A stretch of DNA of 64,000 nt from Minisyncoccota bacterium (GTDB lineage Bacteria > Patescibacteriota > Minisyncoccia > Phycocordibacterales > DATDWN01), in the NCBI GenBank assembly GCA_036517395.1, contig DATDWN010000016.1, forward strand, positions 11,262 to 75,261, in the 5' to 3' direction. This document shows positions 4,346 through 60,937 of the stretch, piece by piece (position 1 is the stretch's first letter; each line of letters opens with the position of its first letter). The notes under the pieces were generated by a model. The model was given only the letters and a program-made list of their open reading frames with translations, was not told where the DNA came from and made no database searches. Made by a program: the position numbers and the translations under genes.

Positions 4346-4791
4346 ATTAATATCAAGTGACAAGAAGACAGTAGCTTTTTAGCTAAACTGAATTTGTCCC
4401 TAGTGAGGTGCCGGTAGCTAGTGCGATGGCGACTGGTATAGTCTTGGAGCCTGTGCTGATGCTGGTGGCTATGAGGGGTGTTTTCTAAACTGAAAATGAA
4501 TTAACCAAAGTATATATCTGTCAAAAAATAAGTCAATCCTATTATCCACCACCTTGAATAAAAGTAATTACTCTGACATGATTAAATTACAACTTAATAA
4601 AAAGTTGACCTAACCCCCATAGTTTTCTGTGGGATATGGTCAAAAACCGGTAAGAGACAAAGAACCCATCATATAGGGCTACTCTTACCGGTCCCTGCGG
4701 GAAACTGCAGGTGGAGGACCTCGGTCCTCACCTATGTGGTGGGCTTTTTGTGTCCAAAATACGAATTATTTTTATTATTAAATAAATTATT

Positions 4792-11595: not shown

Positions 11596-11698
11596 TGAGC
11601 TGGATAGGACTCGAACCTATATCATGACCTTAGAATGGTCAGCCCTGGGGAGGGTATAGTTTTCAAGACTACTGTTCTATCCATTGAACTACCAGCCC
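11596..11698 (-). tRNA. atypical tRNA, anticodon UGA (Ser-like) with extra hairpin; ~103 nt
   Basis: Reverse complement folds: acceptor GGGCTGG/CCAGCTC, D-arm GTTC-AATGGATA-GAAC, anticodon arm GTAGT-CTTGAAA-ACTAT, variable hairpin CCCT-CCCC-AGGG, an additional TGACC-ATTCTAA-GGTCA hairpin, T-arm ATAGG-TTCGAGT-CCTAT. Confidence 0.55.
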
Positions 11699-12757
11699 AC
11701 ATCCTACTCCAAAATTTGGAGTAGAGAAAAACCAATTAAAGTTTTTTCTTTTTATCAGAAGTGCCTTTCTTCTTTGCGGGAGGGGGCATTTTCTGTTTTT
11801 CCTCGTCAACTTCAAAACAAAACGCTCTCAGACCTTTTTCCCATGCATAAAGTATTTTTCCGTTACGCAAAGTAATAAAAGGTCTACATATGAGTGTAGC
11901 CACTTTATTTTATCTATCTGTATCCTAATAATGCCTTTGCTCTTTAGGCGAGCCGTTACGGCTGACACAATTTTCCGTTGGTATAGTTTAGATTACTTAT
12001 TATATAGCTAATCTTATAAACCCAACTCGGCTTTTTGCTTTAGGAACGATTTAGTGGACAGCACTCTGGGAGTTACCCCTCAAGTTTACACCTGGGAAAG
12101 TTTCCTTCCCCAAAATGCTTTCCACCAAATCTTTCAAAAAACATCTTGTCGAGTGCTGTCCACCAATGACTTATTCATCGGTACCATAATTATACTACAT
12201 ACAGTTTTCATTGCAAATAAAATTTCAATATAAAGTTGTGGACAGCCCAAAAAATCAGAAAAATAAAAAATAGATTTTGACTAATCTGTTTTTATAGAAA
12301 AGCTTGGGTAGGGTATGTACCCCCCCACCCCAAAAACACCCTTTATTGCATGGGATGACCTATTGGCGGTATTTCCTCACCACCCCCTGCCAAAGTCGGG
12401 GGTAGATGCACCTCCACCCCCTGGACCATATACGAAGCTTGGAGCGTGTTATGTTAAGATTGGTACATAAAACATTGTGTTTTGGCTCTCATACCAAGTT
12501 CTAACAGCCTCAACAGTGTTCCGCATATACGACGAACCCCACGCGCTCAGCTTACGCGTGGGGACAGGCTGGTAGCTCTCAGGAGAACAGTGATACTACC
12601 AACCATCGAAGAAGGAACGGGAAACCGAAGACGATCACTATGGTCATGATGACCATGCCAAGCAGTAGGGCTTGGCCGTCATGCTCAGTGCAAGACTCGG
12701 GACTGGTCACAATTACCCTCCACTATTCTTTTTACTACAAAACCAATTTTTAATCAA

Positions 12758-12788
12758 CCCTGTAGTGAGTTTCGCTCTACTACGGGGC
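12758..12788. repeat. family B (CCCTGTAGT...ACTACGGGG) element, short copy upstream of miaA
   Basis: CCCTGTAGTGAGTTTCGCTCTACTACGGGG. Confidence 0.6.
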
Positions 12789-12809: not shown

Positions 12810-13694
12810 CTAAATCCTAGTTATTTCACCAGGTTTAAACCATTTTATTCTTTTGTCTCTCTTAAACCAGACCATTTGGCGTTTGGCATAGTGCCAGATT
12901 TCGGTTTCGAGTTTTTTGATAAAGTTTTCTTTCGTAATTTTCTTTTCCATAAAATCGGCGAGATATCTATACTCCAAACCAAGCTCTCTCATACGTTTCC
13001 AAGATAGGCCGTTTTTATGTAGATTTTTTGCCTCGGTTATCATGCCTGCTCTAATTCGCGCGAATAGGCGAACATGTATTCTCTTTTTTAATTCTTTATC
13101 AGGCAACCTCAATCCTATTTGTAAAAATTTGTAAGGATTTTCACCCATTTTTATTTCCGGAGTTCTGCCTAGTGCTGTTGCAATTTCAATGGCTCGTATT
13201 AGTCTCACAGGGTTTTTAATATCAATATTTGAAAATCGTCTTGGGTCTAATTTAACCAAGATTGTTTGTAATTCCGCCAAACCTTTTTTCTCTAATTTTT
13301 TTCGCAATACTTTATTTGGTGGTACTTCTGGTAGGATAACATTTTCAACTATTGATTGAATATAAAATCCAGTGCCCCCACAGATTATGGGCAGTTTGCC
13401 TCGAGAGATTATGTTTTTAATTATTTTTTCCGTTTTTTCCTTCCATTCGCTTACCGTAAAAACTTTTTTTGGCGATACTATGTCTAGCATATGGTGGGGA
13501 ACACCTCGCATCTCTTTTTTCGTAATTTTTCCCGTACCGATATCCAAATCTTTGTAAACCTGTCTCGAATCAGCAGAAATCACCTCGCCCTTATATTTTC
13601 GAGCGAGTTTTACAGCCAAACCGCTCTTGCCCGTGGCTGTTGGGCCAAGAATTACAAGAATTTTAGAACTATTTTTGCTTGATTTTTCTCTCAT
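12810..13694 (-). CDS. miaA: tRNA dimethylallyltransferase
   Basis: P-loop 'GPTATGKSGLAVKLA', 'ISADSRQVYKDLDIGTGK', 'VPHHMLD'. Confidence 0.9.
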   Translation of the reverse strand: MREKSSKNSSKILVILGPTATGKSGLAVKLARKYKGEVISADSRQVYKDLDIGTGKITKKEMRGVPHHMLDIVSPKKVFTVSEWKEKTEKIIKNIISRGKLPIICGGTGFYIQSIVENVILPEVPPNKVLRKKLEKKGLAELQTILVKLDPRRFSNIDIKNPVRLIRAIEIATALGRTPEIKMGENPYKFLQIGLRLPDKELKKRIHVRLFARIRAGMITEAKNLHKNGLSWKRMRELGLEYRYLADFMEKKITKENFIKKLETEIWHYAKRQMVWFKRDKRIKWFKPGEITRI

Positions 13695-17899: not shown

Positions 17900-20159
17900 G
17901 CCTTTTTTTCTCTTCCTGCAAAATTTCTAGTGCGCGGGGAAGTTCTATTGTGTACACATCATCTTCTTTCAGAGAGCGAAAATCTTTTTGATGTACTATG
18001 TATGGCCCGAAACGTCCAATGTTTGCCGTTATCTTTTCACCGGTATCAGGATGAACCCCCAAGACTTTCGGAAGCGACAAATATTTTAGTGCATCAGCCA
18101 ATGTCACCGTGCTCAAATCTTTCTCTCTCGGTATTGATGCCATTTTTGGCTTAATTGCTTTTTTCGAACCCTTGCCCTTCACCCTCTCTCCAACCTGAAC
18201 ATATGGCCCGTACTTTCCAATATTTACAAAAATCGGCAAACCAGATTCCGGATCAACTCCTACGGGTTCATCCTTTTTAATCTCCTCTCCCGCCATAGTC
18301 AAAGCACCTTCACAGTCAGGATAGTTAGAACAGGAAAGAAACTTGCCGTTTCGAGAAAGTTTTATAATCATATCTTTGCCACATTTTGGACATCGGAATT
18401 CGAGACCGGCGTCACCCAGGTTTGTGATCTTATCAATTTTTTCCTTGGCTTTTACATCGGCCAAAAATGGCTTATAAAAAGTAGCCAATGTTTTTACATA
18501 TTCTTCCTTACCCTCGGCTATGAGGTCGAGTTTATCTTCCATGTCAGCCGTGAAGCTGTCGCTTATGTACTCGGCAAAATTTGCTTCCAAAAAACTAGAT
18601 ACAACATCGCCCGTGTCAGTGGGTACCAGTGCCTTGCTCACTTTCTCCACGTAACCTCTATCCTCCAAAGTTTTTATGGTTGAAGCGTATGTACTAGGCC
18701 TTCCTATGCCTCTTTTCTCAAGTTCCTTAATCAATCCTGCTTCAGAGTATCTTCCTGGTGGTTCGGTCTGCTTTTCTTCTGTATTAATTTTTTTCAAATT
18801 AAGAGCCTCACCGATTTTGACTTTTGGCAATTCAACATCATCTCCTCGCGAAGCCGGATCTCCGAGGAGCCATCCAGCAAATTTAATTTGCGAACCAGTT
18901 ATAGAAAAATCCGGAATATGTGTGTCAAGGACAGTCCTTGACATTGACACATTTGCTGATATTTTGGTTCGAAGTGTCAGAGCATCTTTCATTTGCGATG
19001 ACACAGTTCGTCGCCATATGAGCTTATAAAGTTTTTTCTGTTCATCATTAAAACCGACATGCTCGGCTTCAAAATGTGTTGGGCGTATAGCCTCGTGCGC
19101 CTCCTGTGCGTTTTTGGATTTAGTTGCAAATTTTCGTATTTGTAAATATTCTTTACCAAACTTTTTCTCCACCACTGCCGCAATCTGTGCTATAGCAACA
19201 CCACTCAAGTTTGTCGAGTCCGTGCGCATGTATGTAATATGTCCACACTCATATAATTTCTGTGCAATACCCATTGTTCTTGATGGAGAAAATCCTAGCC
19301 GTGATGATGCTGTCTGTTGAAGTGTGGAGGTTATGAAAGGCGCACGAGGGGATTTTTTCACATCCGTCTCTTTTACATCTTTCACAAACCAGCTGTTTTC
19401 CTTTCCTCCCTTTTCTGCAATTTCCACAATCCGCTCCATTTCTTTTTTATCTGTTGGTTCTTCTTCGCAGACAACAGTAAAAATCTGTTTTCCCCTAGGC
19501 AACGCCTCGGGAGATTTATCTGAGGTATCCGAGGCGTTGCCTAGGGAAGAGATCTCTGCTGAAATAATCCAGAAAGCATGAGACTTAAAAGCCCGGATTT
19601 CTCTCTCGCACTCCATGATAATGCGCAGAGCGGGGGATTGGACGCGTCCGGCAGAGAGGCCATATCGTACTTTTTTCCATATCAAACCCGACAAGTCGTA
19701 TCCCACGAGCCTATCGAGGACTCGCCTTGCTTCCTGCGCTTGTCGCAAATTCTGATCGATATCCCGTGGATTTTTCAAAGCTTCCTCTATCGCTTCCTTA
19801 GTAATTTCCTGATATGAAACCCTCTTCACTTTTTTGTTATGTACTATATGTTCTGTGCCCTTATCATTAATAAGTTCTGCCAAGTGCCATGCTATCGCCT
19901 CACCCTCGCGGTCGGGGTCAGTTGCAAGCAGAACTTCACTGGACTTTTTGGCCAAAGCTTTTATACCATTGACCACTTTCTCCTTGCCTTTGGAAATTTC
20001 ATAGTGCGGCACGAAACCACCCTCGATGTCGATGGCCACTTTGTTCGACTTTGGCAAATCACGAACATGGCCGACAGAAGCAACCACTTCATATCCACTT
20101 CCAAGATATTTTGAAATAGTCTTGGCTTTGGCGGGGGACTCAACGATAAGTAACTTCAT
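17874..20159 (-). CDS. topA: DNA topoisomerase I
   Basis: Toprim 'LLIVESPAKAKTISKYLG', active-site region, C-terminal Zn ribbons 'CPKCGKDM', 'CSNYPDC'. Confidence 0.9.
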   Translation of the reverse strand: MKLLIVESPAKAKTISKYLGSGYEVVASVGHVRDLPKSNKVAIDIEGGFVPHYEISKGKEKVVNGIKALAKKSSEVLLATDPDREGEAIAWHLAELINDKGTEHIVHNKKVKRVSYQEITKEAIEEALKNPRDIDQNLRQAQEARRVLDRLVGYDLSGLIWKKVRYGLSAGRVQSPALRIIMECEREIRAFKSHAFWIISAEISSLGNASDTSDKSPEALPRGKQIFTVVCEEEPTDKKEMERIVEIAEKGGKENSWFVKDVKETDVKKSPRAPFITSTLQQTASSRLGFSPSRTMGIAQKLYECGHITYMRTDSTNLSGVAIAQIAAVVEKKFGKEYLQIRKFATKSKNAQEAHEAIRPTHFEAEHVGFNDEQKKLYKLIWRRTVSSQMKDALTLRTKISANVSMSRTVLDTHIPDFSITGSQIKFAGWLLGDPASRGDDVELPKVKIGEALNLKKINTEEKQTEPPGRYSEAGLIKELEKRGIGRPSTYASTIKTLEDRGYVEKVSKALVPTDTGDVVSSFLEANFAEYISDSFTADMEDKLDLIAEGKEEYVKTLATFYKPFLADVKAKEKIDKITNLGDAGLEFRCPKCGKDMIIKLSRNGKFLSCSNYPDCEGALTMAGEEIKKDEPVGVDPESGLPIFVNIGKYGPYVQVGERVKGKGSKKAIKPKMASIPREKDLSTVTLADALKYLSLPKVLGVHPDTGEKITANIGRFGPYIVHQKDFRSLKEDDVYTIELPRALEILQEEKKRRGFKKKSK

Positions 20160-25299: not shown

Positions 25300-25440
25300 A
25301 TATCCGCACACTAACTTTGCTCTCGTTGCATTCAGTCTCAAAATATAGATGTATATCTTAGATTTAGATATAATTTCTAACTTTTGCTTGATTGTTAATG
25401 TGGCAACAGGGAGACAAGAGCAAAGTTAGTGTGCGGATAA
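25300..25440. repeat. family A MITE-like element, copy 1 (TIR TATCCGCACACTAACTTTGCTCT), abuts dnaX ATG
   Basis: Terminal inverted repeats; right end GTGTGCGGATAAATATG includes the dnaX start codon. Confidence 0.8.
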
Positions 25441-32379: not shown

Positions 32380-33246
32380 ATGAAGACATCAAATAAAGTC
32401 CTTGGGTTTTTTCTTTGTCTGGCTTTTTTCGTCCCGACTCTAATTTTTGCCGCTTCGGAGGTTCATATAACAAGCGACGGCAAAGCTACAGTCTCGCAGT
32501 TAAAAGTTATGCAAATATTTGGCAGTACTCTGGCCACTCGGATGTATTGGGGTAGTGCCTACGTCAGGCTGACTGTGAAAACTGGTGATAAAACCAAGTT
32601 TTACAGAGGTACAGGAGAGGTGACTACTCTCTCTGAAATAACCGAGGGGAATATTCTTGATATAACTGGAGAGTTGGAGTCGGGAAGTGACAGTCTTTCT
32701 CTGGTTGCCTCAACGGTTAAAAACTCTTCTGTTCAAAAACAACAGACAGTCATCTCTGGTGTGGTAACTGGCGTTGATTTAGGAAACAAAAGGTTTAGTA
32801 TGAAGAGTTCAAAATATGGCGTGGTGACTATAAATGCAAGCGGAGGGACGGTTTTTACAAAAGGCACACGAAGCCTCGATATCGAGCATGTTAAAGTAGG
32901 AGATATGGTGACAAAAGCCTCTGGTGATTATGACTTGAGCACAAAAACCATGACTGCTACATCTGTCACAACATTCATTGATCCAAAAACTTTTGTGGCC
33001 AAAAACTATGAGGGCTCTCTCGTCGAAGTGGGCTCTGCTACATTACCGACAACCCTGAAAGTAAAAATAGGCTCTCTCACATACATAGTAAACTTGAGTG
33101 CCAAAGCGTCAGTTTTGAGAAAAAACCGAAATGCTGTCGGACTGAATCGATTTGTTGCTGGTGACTCTGTGCGTTTGTATGGTGCCATCCGCGAAGTTGA
33201 TGACCCTATAATAGATGCGGAGATAATAAGGAATCTTAGTTTATAA
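32380..33246 (+). CDS. secreted hypothetical protein
   Basis: Signal peptide 'MKTSNKVLGFFLCLAFFVPTLIFA'. The track start at 32326 overlaps the SDR gene; the internal ATG at 32380 is preferred. Confidence 0.45.
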   Translation: MKTSNKVLGFFLCLAFFVPTLIFAASEVHITSDGKATVSQLKVMQIFGSTLATRMYWGSAYVRLTVKTGDKTKFYRGTGEVTTLSEITEGNILDITGELESGSDSLSLVASTVKNSSVQKQQTVISGVVTGVDLGNKRFSMKSSKYGVVTINASGGTVFTKGTRSLDIEHVKVGDMVTKASGDYDLSTKTMTATSVTTFIDPKTFVAKNYEGSLVEVGSATLPTTLKVKIGSLTYIVNLSAKASVLRKNRNAVGLNRFVAGDSVRLYGAIREVDDPIIDAEIIRNLSL

Positions 33247-33731
33247 TGGACAAAATGAATAATTATGCTTTTATAGACAGTAACAATGTGTATCTCTCAA
33301 TAAGATCGCAAGGATGGAGTATTGAATGGGAGAGATTTAGAGTTTATCTTAGAGAGCATTATCGTGTCGCTATTGCCTATCTCTTCATTGGCTATATTGA
33401 AGGTAATAATGATGTTTATGTTCGACTACAAAAAGCAGGATTTATTTGCATTTGGAAACCAGTTCTTACATACAAAGACGGAACAGTAAAAGGAAATGTG
33501 GATGCGGAACTAGTTCTTCATACGATGATACAACTACCTAATTTTGACAAAGCGGTGATTGTAACAGGAGATGGCGATTTTTATTGCCTTGTTCAATATT
33601 TGTTGGAGCAAAATAAATTACAAACCGTCCTTGTACCAAATCAACATAAATACTCAGCACTTTTGAAGAAATTTGCTAAAAAGAATATCGCTTTTATGAA
33701 TGACTTGAAAAATAAAATAGGCTTAAAATAG
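33246..33731 (+). CDS. NYN/LabA-like PIN-fold domain protein
   Basis: 'AFIDSNNVY', 'VDAELVLHTM', 'AVIVTGDGDF' acidic PIN-like residues. Confidence 0.55.
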   Translation: MDKMNNYAFIDSNNVYLSIRSQGWSIEWERFRVYLREHYRVAIAYLFIGYIEGNNDVYVRLQKAGFICIWKPVLTYKDGTVKGNVDAELVLHTMIQLPNFDKAVIVTGDGDFYCLVQYLLEQNKLQTVLVPNQHKYSALLKKFAKKNIAFMNDLKNKIGLK

Positions 33732-43483: not shown

Positions 43484-44710
43484 TTACTTGTCGGTGCCGG
43501 TCCGAGCCGTCAGCGCCTTGGAACGGCGCTGACGCTTCGGAGTGACCGACATGTTGAACGAGGAGCCCGTCATCGTGATCATACCGGTCGCTTCGTCCAC
43601 CGTGAAGTGGGCGCCGCGATCGAACGTGATGACCCGATCGCCGATGGTGACCGTGGACCGACCCTCCGTCTCCGCTCCCGCACGAATGCGGGCGACGGCG
43701 ATTGAGGGGTGGGGAAGCGCCTGAGGTGCGGGTTGAACCGGTTCCGGTGCGGGCACCGCGACGGCGCGGGCCGTGAACGTGAATCCACTGAGACCCCCGC
43801 CGTAGAAGACGGGGTTCATGCATCCCTGAAGCGACATGAGCTCAGGCTCGCTGCCGTCGGGGAAGTGGAATCGTGCCCTGTACCCGGGTTGCGGTGGGTT
43901 GATCCGGCGCGGACGGGCGCGGTCGGCGTAACCGACCATGCCCTCCCCCGAGATCATACCTTCCTCGACTGGTCCGATGCGTCGGATGTTCTGGCGAACC
44001 GTGGCGGCTTCTGCACCGGGTGTCGCGCGAATGTACTGCGCGACCGCCTGGTCCTGGAAGTGGTTCGTCAAACGCTCCGTCTCCGTCGGCGTGATGCCGC
44101 CGACAACGATTGGAGGACCAGACGTGACCGGATTCTGCTCCAGCTCACGACCCCAGTGTTCACGGGCGTTCTCCTCGCGCTCCCTCGCCATCGCCGCATC
44201 ATGTCGTCTTGCGATGTAATCGCGAAGGAACCAGAGTGCGATGAATGTGACGGCGCCCAGCAGAAGCAGTAGGGAGAACCACAGATAGTTATCGTACCTG
44301 CTCGCCGATGCAGTCGCCGTGGTGCTTTCGGGCTTCTTCTCCTCGGCCGCCTTGACCACGTGGGTCTCGGGCGGGGGAGGTGTCGCCGCCTCGTTCGTGA
44401 TGAACTCGTTCACCGCCATGCCGGCGGGAACACACAACACGTCACCACGCGAATCGTACAGCCATGCGATGGTGTCCTTGCCCTTGCCTGACACCCGGGC
44501 TTGAAGCCCCGGGTTCGTGGCGAGTAGCATATTCCACTTGGGTCCGTATTTCTGGTACAACACGTCGCCGTGCTGGACCGTATAGACGGTTCCGTTGTAG
44601 ATCGCTTTGCAGTTGGTCGCGGTGAGCGGCGTGATGCGGTTGATCGTCTGCGCCGCGGCCGTGACGGCCGAGAGCGCGAGAACGATCGCGAGAGACGTGA
44701 TACGTTTCAT
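43484..44710 (-). CDS. high-GC LysM domain protein with signal peptide and central TM (foreign origin)
   Basis: ~65% GC versus an AT-rich flank; LysM 'YTVQHGDVLYQKYGPKWNMLLATNPGL'; signal 'MKRITSLAIVLALSAVTAAAQ'; TM 'LWFSLLLLLGAVTFIALWF'. Confidence 0.7.
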   Translation of the reverse strand: MKRITSLAIVLALSAVTAAAQTINRITPLTATNCKAIYNGTVYTVQHGDVLYQKYGPKWNMLLATNPGLQARVSGKGKDTIAWLYDSRGDVLCVPAGMAVNEFITNEAATPPPPETHVVKAAEEKKPESTTATASASRYDNYLWFSLLLLLGAVTFIALWFLRDYIARRHDAAMAREREENAREHWGRELEQNPVTSGPPIVVGGITPTETERLTNHFQDQAVAQYIRATPGAEAATVRQNIRRIGPVEEGMISGEGMVGYADRARPRRINPPQPGYRARFHFPDGSEPELMSLQGCMNPVFYGGGLSGFTFTARAVAVPAPEPVQPAPQALPHPSIAVARIRAGAETEGRSTVTIGDRVITFDRGAHFTVDEATGMITMTGSSFNMSVTPKRQRRSKALTARTGTDK

Positions 44711-44824
44711 CGACTGGTCCTTTCAAGTAACATCGCAGGTATCTAGTCCCTAGGGGACGAGCTATACCGCGATTCTGGCGAGTACCATAGCATAGTCTAT
44801 ATATACTGTCAAGCACTTTATTGA

Positions 44825-44893
44825 CCCCAGTAGTAAAGTACCCCGTAGTACAGCAGAGCTGACTACGGGGCAAAGAAGCTCACTACGGGGTAG
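44825..44893. repeat. family B element copy between the LysM island and the DEAD-box gene
   Basis: CCCCAGTAGTAAAGTACCCCGTAGTACAGCAGAGCTGACTACGGGGCAAAGAAGCTCACTACGGGGTAG. Confidence 0.65.
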
Positions 44894-46493: not shown

Positions 46494-46640
46494 CCCTAGT
46501 AGTAGAGCAGAGCTCACTACAGGGCTATCCCGTAGTGAAAATGAAATTATGCACAAAAACACAAACTGGTCGGCATTATTAACATATAATCTTGAAATGA
46601 TACTAGGATCATAAGGCAATTTCATTTTCTACTACTGGGA
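46494..46640. repeat. family B element copy with TIRs (CCCGTAGTGAAAATGAAATT / AATTTCATTTTCTACTACTGGG), abuts dedA ATG
   Basis: Left CCCTAGTAGTAGAGCAGAGCTCACTACAGGG; right end ...CTACTACTGGG-ATG. Confidence 0.65.
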
Positions 46641-50443: not shown

Positions 50444-50577
50444 TTACCCACACACTAAATCTGCCATTGTTTTGTCCTGGTTCTGTCTATAATCTGCTAT
50501 TATACATTATAGTAGATTTGTAAGTGTTGTATAATATTATAAAAAAAGGACGATGGCAGAATTAGTGTGTGGGTTTA
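50444..50577. repeat. family A element, copy 8 (tandem with copy 7, upstream of the FKBP gene)
   Basis: TTTACCCACACACTAAATCTGCCATTGTTTTGTCCTGG ... GACGATGGCAGAATTAGTGTGTGGGTTTAC. Confidence 0.75.
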
Positions 50578-50608: not shown

Positions 50609-51067
50609 ATGAAAACACTAAAAAAAGAAGAGTGGGTGGCGGTTATTATCGCTGTTTTTGTCGTCGGTTTTGTATTTATATTTGGTCAGGGTTTAATGTC
50701 GATATTTAATAATAAAAAATTAGGAACTAGCATGACCCAAGCACCAAAAGTTTTGATACAAGATGAGGTATTTGGCACAGGGGAAATGGCGGCAGTGGGT
50801 GATCGTGTCATTGTGAACTATGTTGGACATTTTGTTGATGGTAGAGTTTTCGATAGCTCCCTCGCTCGTAACGAGCCATTCCAGTTTGTTCTGGGTGTAG
50901 GTCAGGTCATAAAGGGATGGGATGAGGGTATAGTCGGTATGCGAGTTGGTGGAAAGAGGCTTCTCCAAATACCTTCGAGCCTTGGTTATGGGGTTAATGA
51001 TTACGGTCCGATTCCGGGCGGCTCGACATTGATTTTTGAAGTGGAGCTTTTGAAAGTGGAGAAGTAA
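50609..51067 (+). CDS. FKBP-type peptidyl-prolyl cis-trans isomerase (membrane-anchored)
   Basis: 'VNYVGHFVDGRVFDSS...FVLGVGQVIKGWDEGIVGM...GSTLIFEVELLKV'. Confidence 0.85.
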   Translation: MKTLKKEEWVAVIIAVFVVGFVFIFGQGLMSIFNNKKLGTSMTQAPKVLIQDEVFGTGEMAAVGDRVIVNYVGHFVDGRVFDSSLARNEPFQFVLGVGQVIKGWDEGIVGMRVGGKRLLQIPSSLGYGVNDYGPIPGGSTLIFEVELLKVEK

Positions 51068-51134
51068 ACTCTACCTGACTCTTTAAACAAAAAAGTCTTA
51101 AAATAAGGGCTTTTTTGTTGTCCACAAAATCTGC

Positions 51135-51163
51135 TTGACAGCATAGACATAGTATGCTAAGCT
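51135..51163 (+). promoter_or_regulatory. near-consensus sigma-70 promoter (TTGACA-17-TGcTAAGCT, extended -10)
   Basis: TTGACA at 51135-51140, 17-nt spacer, TG at -15/-14, TAAGCT at 51158-51163. Confidence 0.55.
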
Positions 51164-51169
51164 ATACAT

Positions 51170-51576
51170 CAGGAAGGGTGCCTGATCAATAGAGCATCCG
51201 AGGGGACAACGTTGCAGGGGCGAAAAAAAAGAAAGGTCCATTTTTTCAGCGTCAGTCCCGAGGAGGCCAGATTGGCTTGATGTTTCTAGGGCATCAAACG
51301 GGTGAGAAGAGCTAGACTTCTGCCCGGAGCCAGTCTGATGGTTGTGTGGCCGCCTCAATGTTTCACACTCGGCGGGGGGTTATCCCGCTTAAATACATCC
51401 AGGCAGTTACGTTCATGTTGCCTAAGTGCCATGTATGTAACACCCGTCAGAGCGGAAGCGTTTATTGCTTTCGCCGAGGACAACCTGTTTAGTTAGAGGG
51501 GTAGAGGGCCGACGAAAAACTAGCCGCCGACTCTCTCACCCAATCACGCGCCGATCCCTCTGGGCTCGGCGTTTTG
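51170..51576 (+). ncRNA. candidate structured RNA (~400 nt) or long cis-regulatory leader of tgt; class undetermined
   Basis: GC-enriched relative to flanks; starts downstream of the promoter; ends in hairpin GCCGATCCCTCTGGGCTCGGC plus a T-run, 47 nt before the tgt ATG; no convincing ORF. Confidence 0.4.
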
Positions 51577-51622
51577 CATTATAAAAATTTCTTTTTTTAT
51601 GCATAAATGCTAATCTGGTTTA

Positions 51623-52909
51623 GTGAAATCTTTTTCTTTTGATATACATTCTGAACTTCCAAATTCTCTCGGACGAGTTGGTACAATACACACTCCACAT
51701 GGTGACATACAAACACCGGCATTTGTCGCAGTTGGAACAAAAGGCACGGTAAAAAGTTTGACGCCGGAACAGGTCGCAGATACTGGCACACAAGTCATAA
51801 TCGCAAATACATATCATTTATATTTAGAGCCCGGAGACGAAAAGATAAAAAATATTGGAGGGTTGCACAAAGCGATGAACTGGTCTGATCCTCTTATGAC
51901 CGACTCTGGCGGCTTCCAAGTTTTTTCTCTAGGTGTCGCATATGGCAAAAAGATTAGCAAAGTTTCAAAAAAAGATGAACTAATACTATCCAAGCCTCTC
52001 CCTATGTCCGACATAGGGAGATTTGCGGAAACAAGACTTCAACAAGATGAGGCAGTACCAAAGATTGCTCGAATTGATTCCAATGGGGTAATGTTCCGCG
52101 ATCATATATCGGGCAGCGCTCACTATTTTACTCCGGAAAAATCGATAGAGATTCAGCACAATCTCGGCGCAGATATTATTTTTGCCTTTGACGAATGCAC
52201 CTCACCTCATGAGTCGCTTCATTATCAGAAAGAAGCGCTTGAGAGAACTCACCGCTGGGCTCGACGTTCTCTTGAACATCATTCCGACATTCTCAAGAAT
52301 GTCGGAATGAATGGCCCTGCGATTTTTGGCATTGTGCAGGGCGGGCGAGATGAAACCTTGCGTAAAGAAAGTGCAAAATATATGGCAGATTTAAGGGCCG
52401 GAGGTCCTGAACGAAGCGAAGGATTCGACGGTTTCGGAATAGGCGGATCATTTGAAAAAGAAGATATGAGCAAGGCAGTAGAATGGTGCAATCAGATTTT
52501 GCCAAGAGAGAAGCCAAGGCATCTGCTTGGTATCGGCGAGCCAACCGATTTATTTATGGCGGTTGAGTTCGGGTGTGATTTGTTTGACTGTGTTTCACCC
52601 ACTCGTATCGCTCGAAACGGCGGAGTTTATACAAAAGAAGGAAGAGTCAATTTACTGAATCAAGAATTTCGAGAAGATTCAAAACCTCTCGACCAAGGTT
52701 GTCTCTGCTACACATGCAAAAACTTTTCGTGCGCTTATGTTGCACATCTCTTTCATGCAAAAGAAATTTTGGCTTATACGCTGGCATCAATACACAACCT
52801 TTATTTTATAACTCACATGGTGGATGGTATGCGCGAGACTATGCAAAGCGGGGATTTTGAAAGCTACAAAAAAGATTTTTTAAGTAAATACTACAGGACT
52901 AATTTGTGA
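51623..52909 (+). CDS. tgt: queuine tRNA-ribosyltransferase
   Basis: 'LMTDSGGFQVFSL', 'DCVSPTRIARNGG', Zn site 'CLCYTCKNF...H'; carries a 30-bp palindromic segment at 52290-52319. Confidence 0.9.
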   Translation: MKSFSFDIHSELPNSLGRVGTIHTPHGDIQTPAFVAVGTKGTVKSLTPEQVADTGTQVIIANTYHLYLEPGDEKIKNIGGLHKAMNWSDPLMTDSGGFQVFSLGVAYGKKISKVSKKDELILSKPLPMSDIGRFAETRLQQDEAVPKIARIDSNGVMFRDHISGSAHYFTPEKSIEIQHNLGADIIFAFDECTSPHESLHYQKEALERTHRWARRSLEHHSDILKNVGMNGPAIFGIVQGGRDETLRKESAKYMADLRAGGPERSEGFDGFGIGGSFEKEDMSKAVEWCNQILPREKPRHLLGIGEPTDLFMAVEFGCDLFDCVSPTRIARNGGVYTKEGRVNLLNQEFREDSKPLDQGCLCYTCKNFSCAYVAHLFHAKEILAYTLASIHNLYFITHMVDGMRETMQSGDFESYKKDFLSKYYRTNL

Positions 52910-60782: not shown

Positions 60783-60937
60783 CCCCAGTAGTAGAGCGTA
60801 GCTCACTACAGGGTAAACCCCGTAGTGAAAATGACATAAAATTTTATGCAAAGTTATTACTTTGCCATGTCATTTTCTACTACGGGGTTATCCACAGCGC
60901 ACTTGACTTGTGATACCCCGTAGGGGTATAGTGAGTT
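60783..60937. repeat. family B element copy containing the csoR promoter/operator
   Basis: CCCCAGTAGTAGAGCGTAGCTCACTACAGGG...CCCCGTAGTGAAAATGACAT...ATGTCATTTTCTACTACGGGG...ATACCCCGTAGGGGTAT. Confidence 0.65.
60903..60932 (+). promoter_or_regulatory. csoR-copA promoter (TTGACT-18-TATAGT) with embedded CsoR-type operator palindrome ATACCCCGTAGGGGTAT
   Basis: Perfect 7-3-7 palindrome at 60913-60929, like known CsoR operators (B. subtilis copZA type). The -10 box ends 6 nt before the csoR ATG, implying a leaderless mRNA. Confidence 0.55.

What the first reader, a model, noticed from the sequence alone, without database searches (positions are those of the whole stretch)
51135..51622. ~400-nt promoter-to-terminator unit with no ORF directly upstream of tgt: stand-alone ncRNA or riboswitch-type leader
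A near-perfect sigma-70 promoter (TTGACA-17-TGcTAAGCT) is followed by GC-enriched sequence with many local hairpins and ends in an intrinsic terminator 47 nt before the tgt ATG. The size fits the RNase P RNA or tmRNA class, but I could not match their invariant motifs by eye (only a weak GAAAGGUCCAU resemblance to P4). The alternative is a long regulatory leader with a terminator/antiterminator controlling tgt.
Basis: partly seen in the sequence, partly recalled or inferred. Interest (0 to 1): 0.6.

Follow-up and report, generated by a model that had tools for sequence, protein, structure and literature searches.

The report
Orphan 406-nt RNA unit before tgt
A strong promoter and a good terminator bracket about 406 bases with no believable gene in a groundwater CPR bacterium, but it matches no known RNA, occurs only in this species, and does not control the neighbouring tgt gene, so it is best read as an ordinary species-specific non-coding RNA candidate.

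Summary
TTGACA-17-TGcTAAGCT (51135-51163) is followed by a GC-enriched stretch (0.54 against 0.40). The stretch ends in a -16.5 kcal/mol hairpin plus UUUU (51548-51575), 48 nt before the tgt GTG start codon.

The specific identifications do not hold:
- Rfam 15 gives nothing for RNase P, tmRNA or any riboswitch, even at E<=10. ARAGORN finds no tmRNA. The P4-like segments cannot pair.
- It is not a tgt leader. tgt has its own extended -10 box (TGCTAATCT) 6 nt before its start codon. That leaderless geometry recurs in relatives and in at least 10 other genes of the window.
- In the nearest relatives (76-79% Tgt identity) the FKBP gene abuts tgt with no spacer.
- In other Zambryskibacteria the same spot holds unrelated GC-rich promoter-to-terminator payloads. 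Some encode small membrane proteins and some have no ORF.

No homologue of this RNA was found in any collection searched, so covariation could not be tested. Its folding z-score (-3.4) is not unusual for this genome. No ORF shows coding signal or homologues.

Verdict: a real, stand-alone, species-specific transcription unit, most likely a non-coding RNA of unknown trans function sitting in a variable spacer. Interest is modest.

The parts
51086..51119 (+). Intrinsic terminator of the upstream FKBP-type isomerase gene (50609-51067). It is the left boundary of the unit.
   Evidence: A/U-flanked hairpin at -14.2 kcal/mol, z -6.22.
51135..51140 (+). -35 hexamer TTGACA
   Evidence: Read from the sequence. 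It belongs to one of only 4 TTGACA-N13-15-TGNTANNNT sites in the window, against 0.20 expected.
51155..51163 (+). Extended -10 TGcTAAGCT (hexamer TAAGCT at 51158-51163), 17-nt spacer from the -35
   Evidence: The hexamer matches the consensus at only 3 of 6 positions, so the generic scan did not list it.
51170..51575 (+). Predicted primary transcript of about 406 nt. The 5' end is inferred at 5-8 nt after the -10 box and the 3' end in the U-tract. It is non-coding by all tests run.
   Evidence: - GC is 0.54.
- The + strand folds at -153.6 kcal/mol (z -3.15); the - strand has z -1.76.
- No start codon lies at the predicted +1.
- No gene was called on four public contigs that span the spacer.
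- The ORFs lack coding signal or homologues.
51170..51488 (+). Predicted multi-branch core closed by CAGG (51170-51173) pairing with CCUG (51484-51487). It contains six hairpin domains, including an A-rich 14-nt loop at 51222-51235.
   Evidence: The MFE and MEA structures agree and pair probabilities are mostly above 0.9. The core has z -3.38. This is a prediction only and has no covariation support.
51499..51541 (+). 3' hairpin preceding the terminator
   Evidence: -16.7 kcal/mol, z -1.93.
51548..51575 (+). Intrinsic terminator: a 7+3 bp stem with a UCU loop, then UUUU
   Evidence: -16.5 kcal/mol, z -3.56. The stem pairs form with probability 0.89-1.0 in the full-length ensemble.
51608..51616 (+). 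tgt's own extended -10 box TGCTAATCT, 6 nt upstream of the GTG start. It is not part of the RNA unit but it decides the interpretation.
   Evidence: The box is found at 6-7 nt from the start codon in L007, L008, L009 and L012, with variant boxes in L010 and L089. The same -10-to-start geometry is seen at 15 of 59 gene starts, against 3% of all ATG/GTG.
51623..52909 (+). tgt (queuine tRNA-ribosyltransferase, 428 aa, GTG start), probably leaderless. It is the right-hand neighbour.
   Evidence: Pfam PF01702. The N-terminus MKSFSFDI is shared with homologues.

Best explanation
This is an independent, species-specific transcription unit. A strong sigma-70-type promoter with an extended -10 fires at about 51170. 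The RNA, about 406 nt and 54% GC, folds into a compact multi-hairpin body and is released at an intrinsic terminator (51548-51575). It is not translated.

It is not part of the tgt mRNA. tgt starts afresh from its own extended -10 promoter as a leaderless message, and the terminator insulates it from the strong upstream promoter.

The unit sits in a spacer between the FKBP-type gene and tgt that turns over quickly in Candidatus Zambryskibacteria. Different species hold nothing there, or unrelated GC-rich promoter-to-terminator payloads.

If the RNA has a function, it acts in trans, by base pairing or by binding a protein.

Shown: the signals, the absence of coding evidence, the independence from tgt, and the restriction to this lineage. 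Inferred: that the RNA is made, its exact ends, its fold, and any trans activity.
For: - **Promoter.** It belongs to a class enriched 20-fold over chance in the window.
- **Terminator.** It is strong and has no competing structure.
- **No leaderless ORF.** No start codon lies at the predicted +1, in a genome where leaderless starts are common.
- **No coding signal.**
  - ORF codon log-odds are -0.21 to +0.12 per codon, against a mean of 0.27 and a 5th percentile of 0.10 for real 60-codon windows.
  - GC3 is about equal to GC, unlike the GC-rich real gene at 43484-44710, where GC3 is 0.77 and GC is 0.64.
- **No protein homologues.**
  - The 64-aa ORF has no true homologue among 1.84 billion representative proteins. 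The only hit is a repetitive junk protein.
  - Six ORFs give no Pfam or PHROGs match.
- **Strand preference.** The sense strand folds better than the antisense strand.
- **tgt's own promoter.** The -10 box sits 6 nt before the start codon and recurs in relatives.
- **Nearest relatives.** FKBP abuts tgt in the species at 76-79% Tgt identity.
- **Other relatives.**
  - They carry unrelated payloads at the same site, all 9-20 GC points above their locus.
  - L008 and L009 share flanks at 88-94% identity, including the payload's promoter, but their payloads cannot be aligned.
Against: - There is no expression data.
- No homologue was found anywhere, so there is no covariation and no sign of purifying selection. 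The six public contigs are identical across their overlap.
- The folding z-score is within the range of this genome's own sequence. 14% of control windows are as low.
- None of the nine predicted hairpin loops is a GNRA or UNCG tetraloop. That is unlike established large structured RNAs.
- The GC richness could reflect recent foreign origin rather than selection for structure.
- Two short ORFs preceded by a Shine-Dalgarno-like sequence exist, of 22 aa (51212) and 52 aa (51338).
Confidence: 0.5

Rival explanations
1. It is a transcribed but functionless remnant. A cassette acquired or generated in a fast-turnover spacer, perhaps once a small-protein gene like those at the same site in relatives, has lost its ORF. 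Its promoter and terminator are still intact.
For: - The same site in relatives holds small membrane-protein genes: L008 with 49 aa, L014, L019, L011 with 216 aa, and L089 with a TM segment plus zinc ribbon.
- The payload is restricted to this lineage.
- It has no tetraloops and an unexceptional z-score.
- All three + frames are open over 51300-51580, as expected for GC-rich non-selected sequence.
Against: - There is no frameshifted similarity to any protein or to the relatives' payloads.
- In a 40% GC genome, a decaying sequence would be expected to lose GC, and both transcription signals should erode. Here the -35 is perfect and the terminator is strong.
- About half of the payloads at this site in relatives also lack an ORF (L007, L009, L013, L016). 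That suggests ORF-less payloads are a maintained state.
Confidence: 0.2
2. It is an mRNA for one or two very small proteins: the 22-aa basic peptide from TTG 51212, the 52-aa peptide from ATG 51338, or both.
For: Both ORFs have a GAGG or GGAG 8 nt upstream. Small proteins occupy this site in relatives. The 52/64-aa frame begins with a weakly signal-peptide-like stretch.
Against: - The codon log-odds are below the 5th percentile of real genes, and there is no GC3 signal.
- No homologue exists among 1.84 billion representatives. No family matches.
- Gene callers left the spacer empty on four spanning contigs.
- The peptides are not hydrophobic like the relatives' small proteins.
- Both start codons lie inside predicted stable helices.
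Confidence: 0.13
3. It is a long regulatory leader of tgt, of the riboswitch or attenuator type. Ligand- or tRNA-dependent read-through of the terminator would control tgt-uvrB.
For: The unit is co-directional with tgt and lies immediately upstream. The U-tract is only 4 U long, so some read-through is plausible.
Against: - No riboswitch, T-box or leader family matches, even at E<=10.
- The terminator forms with probability 0.89-1.0 and no antiterminator alternative is seen.
- A recurrent -10 box lies 6 nt before the tgt start, between the terminator and the gene.
- The sequence is absent from, or replaced by unrelated sequence (in some species protein-coding), upstream of tgt in every relative.
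Confidence: 0.04
4. It is a highly divergent housekeeping RNA (RNase P RNA, tmRNA, 6S or SRP RNA) that the Rfam models miss in CPR bacteria.
For: The length of about 400 nt fits, and it is a stand-alone gene. Three short strings loosely recall RNase P CR-I, J12/13 and CR-V in the right order.
Against: - No RNase P, tmRNA or other housekeeping-RNA family is reported at E<=10 in a 901-nt search, where the filters are lax. ARAGORN is negative.
- The P4 helix cannot form.
- A housekeeping RNA would be recognisably conserved in species with 60-79% identical neighbouring proteins. Nothing similar is found in 90 related loci, and the syntenic site is empty in the nearest relatives.
Confidence: 0.02

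Closest known systems
Stand-alone bacterial small RNA genes (sigma-70 promoter, Rho-independent terminator, lineage-restricted 'orphan' sRNAs)
   Same: It shares the architecture: its own promoter, no credible ORF, a 3' hairpin followed by a terminator hairpin and U-tract, an intergenic location, and a narrow phylogenetic range.
   Different: - At about 406 nt it is longer than most base-pairing sRNAs, which run 50-300 nt (my own knowledge).
- It has no identified seed region or target. A duplex scan against 58 start regions in the window showed nothing special, and tgt ranked 14th.
- The organism is a CPR bacterium. My literature searches found no described sRNAs or chaperones for this group.
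Bacterial RNase P RNA, type A (Rfam RF00010)
   Same: The size class, the GC enrichment in an AT-rich genome, and the stand-alone gene are shared. There is also a superficial GAAAGGUCC string.
   Different: There is no covariance-model hit at E<=10. The P4 long-range pairing is absent. It is not conserved in relatives.
Large GC-rich intergenic ncRNA classes found by the GC-rich-IGR approach (OLE, GOLLD, ROOL, HEARO, raiA; all in Rfam)
   Same: It is detected in the same way, as a GC-rich, ORF-free, well-folding intergenic island in an AT-rich genome.
   Different: It matches none of these models. It has no homologues, no GNRA tetraloops, and no associated phage or mobile-element context.
preQ1 riboswitches and other transcription-attenuating leaders
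   Same: It lies upstream of, and co-directional with, a queuosine-pathway gene, and it ends in a terminator.
   Different: No aptamer model matches. tgt has its own promoter after the terminator. No alternative antiterminator fold exists. The element is not conserved upstream of tgt.
Small membrane-protein cassettes at the same FKBP-tgt site in related Zambryskibacteria (L008, L011, L014, L019, L089)
   Same: They share the position, the GC enrichment and a terminator just before the tgt promoter. In L008, L011 and L019 a strong TTGAC(A/T)-type promoter is also visible. In L089 the contig starts inside the unit, and in L014 the ORFs lie on the opposite strand.
   Different: Those payloads contain Shine-Dalgarno-led hydrophobic ORFs. 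This one has none and shares no sequence with them.

Membership tests
RNase P RNA (bacterial type A/B, Rfam RF00010/RF00011) | Scores at or above the gathering threshold against the family covariance model | tested here: not met
   There is no hit in the window at gathering scores. No hit was listed at E<=10 in 50900-51800 on either strand.
RNase P RNA (bacterial type A/B, Rfam RF00010/RF00011) | Long-range P4 helix between the CR-I (GGAAAGUCC...) and CR-V (ACAGAA.CCGGCUUA) strands | tested here: not met
   The pair probability between 51226-51242 and 51474-51498 is 0.0000. The best duplex is 4 bp at -6.7 kcal/mol, against -13.3 for the E. coli strands.
RNase P RNA (bacterial type A/B, Rfam RF00010/RF00011) | Universally conserved housekeeping gene, recognisable in related species | tested here: inconclusive
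   Nothing similar is found in 90 related loci, and the syntenic site is empty in the nearest relatives. Whole genomes of the relatives could not be searched.
tmRNA | tRNA-like acceptor/T-arm domain plus a tag-peptide reading frame | tested here: not met
   ARAGORN finds no tmRNA in the window. There is no Rfam hit.
Riboswitch or transcription-attenuation leader of tgt | A recognisable conserved aptamer or leader family | tested here: not met
   No riboswitch, T-box or leader family is listed at E<=10.
Riboswitch or transcription-attenuation leader of tgt | The leader is continuous with the regulated mRNA, with no promoter between the terminator and the ORF | tested here: not met
   TGCTAATCT at 51608-51616 lies 6 nt before the GTG start. 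It recurs in relatives with and without a payload. The same geometry is seen at 15 of 59 gene starts, against 3% background.
Riboswitch or transcription-attenuation leader of tgt | Mutually exclusive terminator and antiterminator structures | tested here: not met
   The terminator pairs have probability 0.89-1.0 in the ensemble of the whole transcript. This is an equilibrium calculation only; co-transcriptional folding was not modelled.
Riboswitch or transcription-attenuation leader of tgt | Conserved upstream of the regulated gene in related genomes | tested here: not met
   It is absent in L087, L092, L094/L095 and L096, where FKBP abuts tgt. In L007, L008, L009, L013, L016 and L089 it is replaced by unrelated sequence.
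Stand-alone non-coding RNA gene (generic) | Own promoter | tested here: met
   TTGACA-17-TGcTAAGCT is one of 4 such sites against 0.20 expected. This is sequence evidence only.
Stand-alone non-coding RNA gene (generic) | Own terminator | tested here: met
   A -16.5 kcal/mol hairpin followed by UUUU.
Stand-alone non-coding RNA gene (generic) | No protein-coding capacity | tested here: met
   Peptides of 22 and 52 aa cannot be formally excluded.
Stand-alone non-coding RNA gene (generic) | Structure supported by covariation in homologues | tested here: inconclusive
   No homologue was found to align. The six same-species contigs are identical across their overlap.
Stand-alone non-coding RNA gene (generic) | A discrete transcript is detected | not testable with these tools
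   No transcriptome data are available here.
Known large ncRNA classes (OLE, GOLLD, ROOL, HEARO, raiA, 6S, SRP) | Covariance-model match | tested here: not met
   The best hit overlapping the region is 24 bits against a 64-bit threshold, for an unrelated Streptococcus sRNA model, and that hit mostly covers the FKBP terminator.

The most novel reading that the evidence does not exclude
The FKBP-tgt spacer of Zambryskibacteria may be a promoter-anchored, rapidly exchanging expression slot. Each species would express a different GC-rich payload there, either a structured RNA or a small membrane protein. This 406-nt RNA would then be the first member of a new class of CPR-specific structured RNA, perhaps involved in the episymbiotic lifestyle or in defence.
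Probability: 0.1. Interest if true: 0.55.

Novelty: new member of a known kind. Interest (0 to 1): 0.3.

Why it matters
If the RNA is real and functional, it would be among the few candidate regulatory RNAs in the Candidate Phyla Radiation, a very large and uncultivated part of bacterial diversity. My literature searches found no described sRNA biology for this group.

The more general point is the site rather than this RNA. Closely related Zambryskibacteria keep the flanks, and in one sister pair even the promoter, while carrying unrelated GC-rich payloads. That pattern would be worth a systematic survey.

As it stands, the unit is present in a single species, cannot be tested by covariation, and has no inferred function. 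Its practical value is mainly negative. It is not RNase P RNA, tmRNA or a tgt riboswitch, and tgt should be annotated as a leaderless gene with its own promoter.

Tried and rejected
**Identity searches**
- Rfam at gathering scores over the whole window, and at E<=10 over 50900-51800, gave nothing relevant. ARAGORN found no tmRNA.
- Rfam on 16 relatives' loci gave no ncRNA near tgt.

**Homologue searches**
- nhmmer and sensitive blastn of the RNA against 96 fetched loci returned only identical same-species contigs.
- blastn (word size 11) against the phage and plasmid collections gave nothing.
- A JGI metagenome scan with an RNA 20-mer gave 0 hits. A control 25-mer at the tgt start also gave 0 hits. 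The collection therefore lacks this species, and the negative only excludes that exact 20-mer elsewhere.
- Six IMG/VR scans with exact or stem-masked patterns gave one chance hit inside a coding region (L091).
- There is no sister species to use. The apparent 89% Tgt relative (P0002) is a protein-assembly chimera, so the next real relatives are at 79% or below.

**Coding tests**
- Codon log-odds, phmmer of the 64-aa ORF against 1.84 billion representatives, and Pfam and PHROGs were all negative.

**Other tests**
- Folding z-score as evidence of structure was rejected after the control showed that this genome's own windows average z -1.3 with sd 2.4. A first attempt at that control timed out.
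- A trans-target guess against the tgt 5' end gave no signal. tgt ranked 14th of 58, and duplexfold on long RNAs is unreliable.
- Shared k-mers with the relatives' payloads were at chance level only.
- A DGR template or internal-repeat idea was dropped because the window holds no second copy.
- I ran no further search on the other spurious ORFs. The chance that a homologous RNA locus had been called as a gene in the same frame seemed too low for the cost.

Full report
**Setting**

The window comes from a Candidate Phyla Radiation bacterium. The closest species-level genome by Tgt identity (75%) is Candidatus Zambryskibacteria RIFOXYD1_FULL_40_13. All 80 best Tgt matches are Paceibacterota/Parcubacteria-type MAGs. 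The same sequence occurs on 11 public metagenome contigs. Six were fetched, and they are identical across the region they cover.

The finding lies in a 555-nt spacer. On its left is an FKBP-type peptidyl-prolyl isomerase gene (50609-51067, +). On its right is tgt (51623-52909, +, GTG start), which is followed directly by uvrB.

**Check of the observation**

- **Promoter.** The sequence shows TTGACA (51135-51140), a 17-nt spacer and TGcTAAGCT (51155-51163). The -10 hexamer matches the consensus at only 3 of 6 positions, so the generic promoter scan does not list it. However, the -35 is perfect and an extended -10 TG is present. The pattern TTGACA-N13-15-TGNTANNNT occurs 4 times in the window against 0.20 expected, and none of 100 shuffles reaches 4.
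- **Composition.** GC rises to 0.53 against about 0.40 in the flanks. The transcribed part is 0.54.
- **Terminator.** The unit ends in a hairpin at 51548-51572 (-16.5 kcal/mol, z -3.56) followed by UUUU. The generic scan missed this hairpin because of an internal mismatch. The last U is 48 nt before the tgt start.
- **Left boundary.** The FKBP gene has its own terminator at 51086-51119.

The described anatomy is real. The predicted RNA runs from about 51170 to about 51575, roughly 406 nt.

**Is it coding?**

Several lines of evidence argue against coding:
- No start codon lies at the predicted +1.
- ORFs of up to 64 aa (+) and 86 aa (-) exist. Their codon log-odds are -0.21 to +0.12 per codon. 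Real 60-codon windows of this genome average 0.27, with a 5th percentile of 0.10.
- GC3 equals overall GC in these ORFs. The GC-rich real gene at 43484-44710 has GC3 of 0.77 against GC of 0.64.
- The 64-aa ORF has no genuine homologue among 1.84 billion representative proteins. The single hit is a tandem-repeat junk protein matched in 7 stretches.
- Six ORFs give no Pfam or PHROGs match.
- Gene callers left the spacer empty on four independent contigs that span it.

Only a 22-aa ORF and a 52-aa ORF have a Shine-Dalgarno-like sequence upstream. I treat coding as unlikely but not excluded.

**Is it a known RNA?**

- Rfam 15 finds a LOOT RNA and four tRNAs elsewhere in the window, but nothing in this region.
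- At E<=10 over 50900-51800, only five chance-level hits to unrelated sRNA models appear. The best is 24 bits against a 64-bit threshold. None is RNase P, tmRNA, 6S, SRP, a riboswitch or a T-box.
- ARAGORN finds no tmRNA.
Their pair probability is 0.0000 and the best duplex is 4 bp at -6.7 kcal/mol. The E. coli P4 strands give -13.3.

**Is it a leader of tgt?**

Four points argue against it:
1. Between the terminator and the start codon lies TGCTAATCT (51608-51616), an extended -10 box exactly 6 nt before the GTG.
   - The same box, at 6-7 nt from the start codon, is found in L007, L008, L009 and L012. Variant boxes occur in L010 and L089.
   - This -10-to-start geometry marks leaderless mRNAs and is common here. 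15 of 59 gene starts have a TAnnnT box 6-7 nt upstream, at least 10 of them without any re-choice of start codon. The background rate over all ATG/GTG is 3.0%. The FKBP gene and uvrB also have it.
2. The terminator forms with probability 0.89-1.0 in the ensemble of the full transcript. No antiterminator competes with it.
3. No aptamer family matches.
4. The sequence is not conserved upstream of tgt (see the next section).

**Relatives**

- nhmmer and sensitive blastn of the RNA against 96 loci find only the identical same-species contigs.
- In the four nearest real relatives (Tgt 79, 78, 77 and 76% identical), the FKBP stop codon abuts or overlaps the tgt start, with 0-10 nt between them.
- The apparent 89% relative P0002 is a chimera. 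Its N-terminal half is that of P0008 and its C-terminal half is ours. It comes from a protein-level assembly with no DNA record.
- In somewhat more distant Zambryskibacteria the spacer varies between 39 and 970 nt.
- Where there is an insert, it is again a GC-enriched unit ending in a terminator just before the tgt promoter, and in most cases it starts with a TTGAC(A/T)-type promoter. These payloads are 9-20 GC points above their locus, and their content is unrelated to ours.
  - Some hold small hydrophobic proteins: L008 (49 aa), L014, L019, L011 (216 aa), and L089 (TM segment plus zinc ribbon).
  - Others have no ORF: L007, L009, L013 and L016.
- L008 and L009 are sister genomes with flanks 94% and 88% identical, and the left alignment includes the payload's promoter. 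Their payloads of 263 and 300 nt cannot be aligned.

The spacer therefore turns over quickly. The unit in the window is one species' version of it.

**Searches beyond relatives**

- No similar sequence exists in 50,697 phage or 72,556 plasmid records.
- An RNA 20-mer is absent from the JGI metagenome collection. A control 25-mer from the tgt start is also absent. That collection therefore does not contain this species, and the negative is weak.
- Six IMG/VR pattern scans gave one chance hit in a coding region.
- The window holds no second copy.

**Is it structured?**

- The + strand folds to -153.6 kcal/mol (z -3.15) and the - strand has z -1.76. The core 51170-51488 has z -3.38. Pair probabilities are sharp.
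- However, 63 control windows of the same length from the same 64 kb have mean z -1.3 and sd 2.4, and 14% reach -3.38 or lower. Much of that tail comes from long intergenic inverted repeats.
- None of the nine predicted hairpin loops is a GNRA or UNCG tetraloop.
- With no homologues, covariation cannot be tested.

The fold is a prediction and is not evidence of function.

**Interpretation**

The best-supported reading (confidence 0.5) is a stand-alone, species-specific non-coding transcription unit. Its terminator insulates the leaderless tgt-uvrB promoter from a strong upstream promoter. Any function would be in trans.

The rivals, in order of confidence:
- a transcribed remnant of a decayed cassette (0.2);
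- an mRNA for a 22-aa or 52-aa peptide (0.13);
- a tgt leader (0.04);
- a divergent housekeeping RNA (0.02).

Two observations favour a maintained RNA over a remnant. The transcription signals are intact and the GC content is high in a 40% GC genome. About half of the payloads at this site in relatives also lack an ORF. Neither observation is decisive.

**Comparison with known systems**

In architecture this is an ordinary orphan bacterial sRNA gene, though long at 406 nt. It fails every tested defining feature of RNase P RNA, tmRNA, riboswitch leaders and the known large ncRNA classes.

I rate it a new member of a known kind, with modest interest (0.3). The most novel reading still open is that the FKBP-tgt spacer is a promoter-anchored slot for rapidly exchanged payloads and that this RNA founds a CPR-specific class (probability about 0.1).

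Noticed in passing
window 50446-50470/50550-50574; 25301-25326/25414-25439; 46308-46334/46447-46473; 16279-16294/16434-16449: Long intergenic inverted repeats with 16-27-nt arms, 92-100% complementary, 79-139 nt apart. They give folding z-scores down to -10. The arms at 25301 and 50446 share CCnCACACTAAnTnTGC, and a similar palindrome lies in the FKBP-tgt spacer of relative L011. The right arm at 50550-50574 abuts the -35 of the FKBP promoter. These could be a MITE/REP-like or operator-like element family.
   Followed up: partly
window 12758-12769(+), 44859-44870(-), 44879-44890(-), 46513-46524(-), 60802-60813(-), 60818-60829(+): The motif CCC(C/T)GTAGTGAG, half of a hairpin CCCYGTAGT...ACTACGGGG, occurs 6 times against 0.39 expected. 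All copies lie in intergenic gaps. One pair sits just upstream of the perfect promoter at 44812.
   Followed up: partly
window 11596-11698 (-): A tRNA model hit (61.2 bits) with anticodon UGA and a 32-nt insertion in the variable region that can form two small hairpins. ARAGORN does not call it. It may be an unusual class II tRNA-Ser or a tRNA with an insertion.
   Followed up: no
window 4607-4729 (+): A full-length LOOT RNA match (71.8 bits against a gathering score of 46.4, E 1.5e-11) inside a 1.1-kb gene-free gap.
   Followed up: no
window 43484-44710 (-) with promoter 44812-44784: A 408-aa ORF of 64% GC (GC3 0.77) in a 40% GC genome. It has a signal-peptide-like N-terminus and no Pfam match, and it sits behind a perfect TTGACA-17-TGCTATGGT promoter. 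It looks like an acquired or fast-evolving secreted protein.
   Followed up: partly
window 12290-12740, ORF 12579-12710 (-): A second GC-enriched island (about 0.50) inside a 1.7-kb stretch without large ORFs. It contains a Shine-Dalgarno-led 43-aa hydrophobic ORF (MTSPESCTEHDGQALLLGMVIMTIVIVFGFPFLLRWLVVSLFS), the same kind of payload as in the relatives' FKBP-tgt spacers. It has no Rfam match.
   Followed up: partly
window-wide, e.g. starts at 13694(-), 21425(-), 27744, 33863, 35767, 36397, 39872, 50609, 51623, 52922: A -10 box (TAnnnT, at least 4 of 6 matches) lies 6-7 nt before the start codon at 15 of 59 gene starts, against 3% of all ATG/GTG. Leaderless mRNAs appear to be common in this Zambryskibacterium.
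   Followed up: partly
L008 2373-2635 versus L009 3665-3964: These sister genomes share 94% and 88% identical flanks, and the left alignment includes the TTGACA/TGCTATAAT promoter. The transcribed payloads between the promoter and the terminator are unrelated: a 49-aa membrane protein in L008 and an ORF-less 300 nt in L009.
   Followed up: partly
window 18938-18965 (+) and 33823-33796 (-): The two other perfect TTGACA plus extended -10 sites in the window. One lies inside a 761-aa ORF on the opposite strand. The other points back into the 3' end of the ORF at 33246-33731. They may be antisense promoters.
   Followed up: no
protein P0002: The only apparent close relative of this Tgt (89%) is a chimera. 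Its N-terminal half is that of P0008 and its C-terminal half is that of the window protein. It comes from a source without contigs.
   Followed up: yes
L092 2297-2908: In a 78%-identical relative, a 612-nt stretch with no called gene lies downstream of tgt. The first ~310 nt look GC-rich and hairpin-prone; the rest is AT-rich. In the window, tgt and uvrB are only 12 nt apart there. This may be a second variable spacer in this gene neighbourhood.
   Followed up: no
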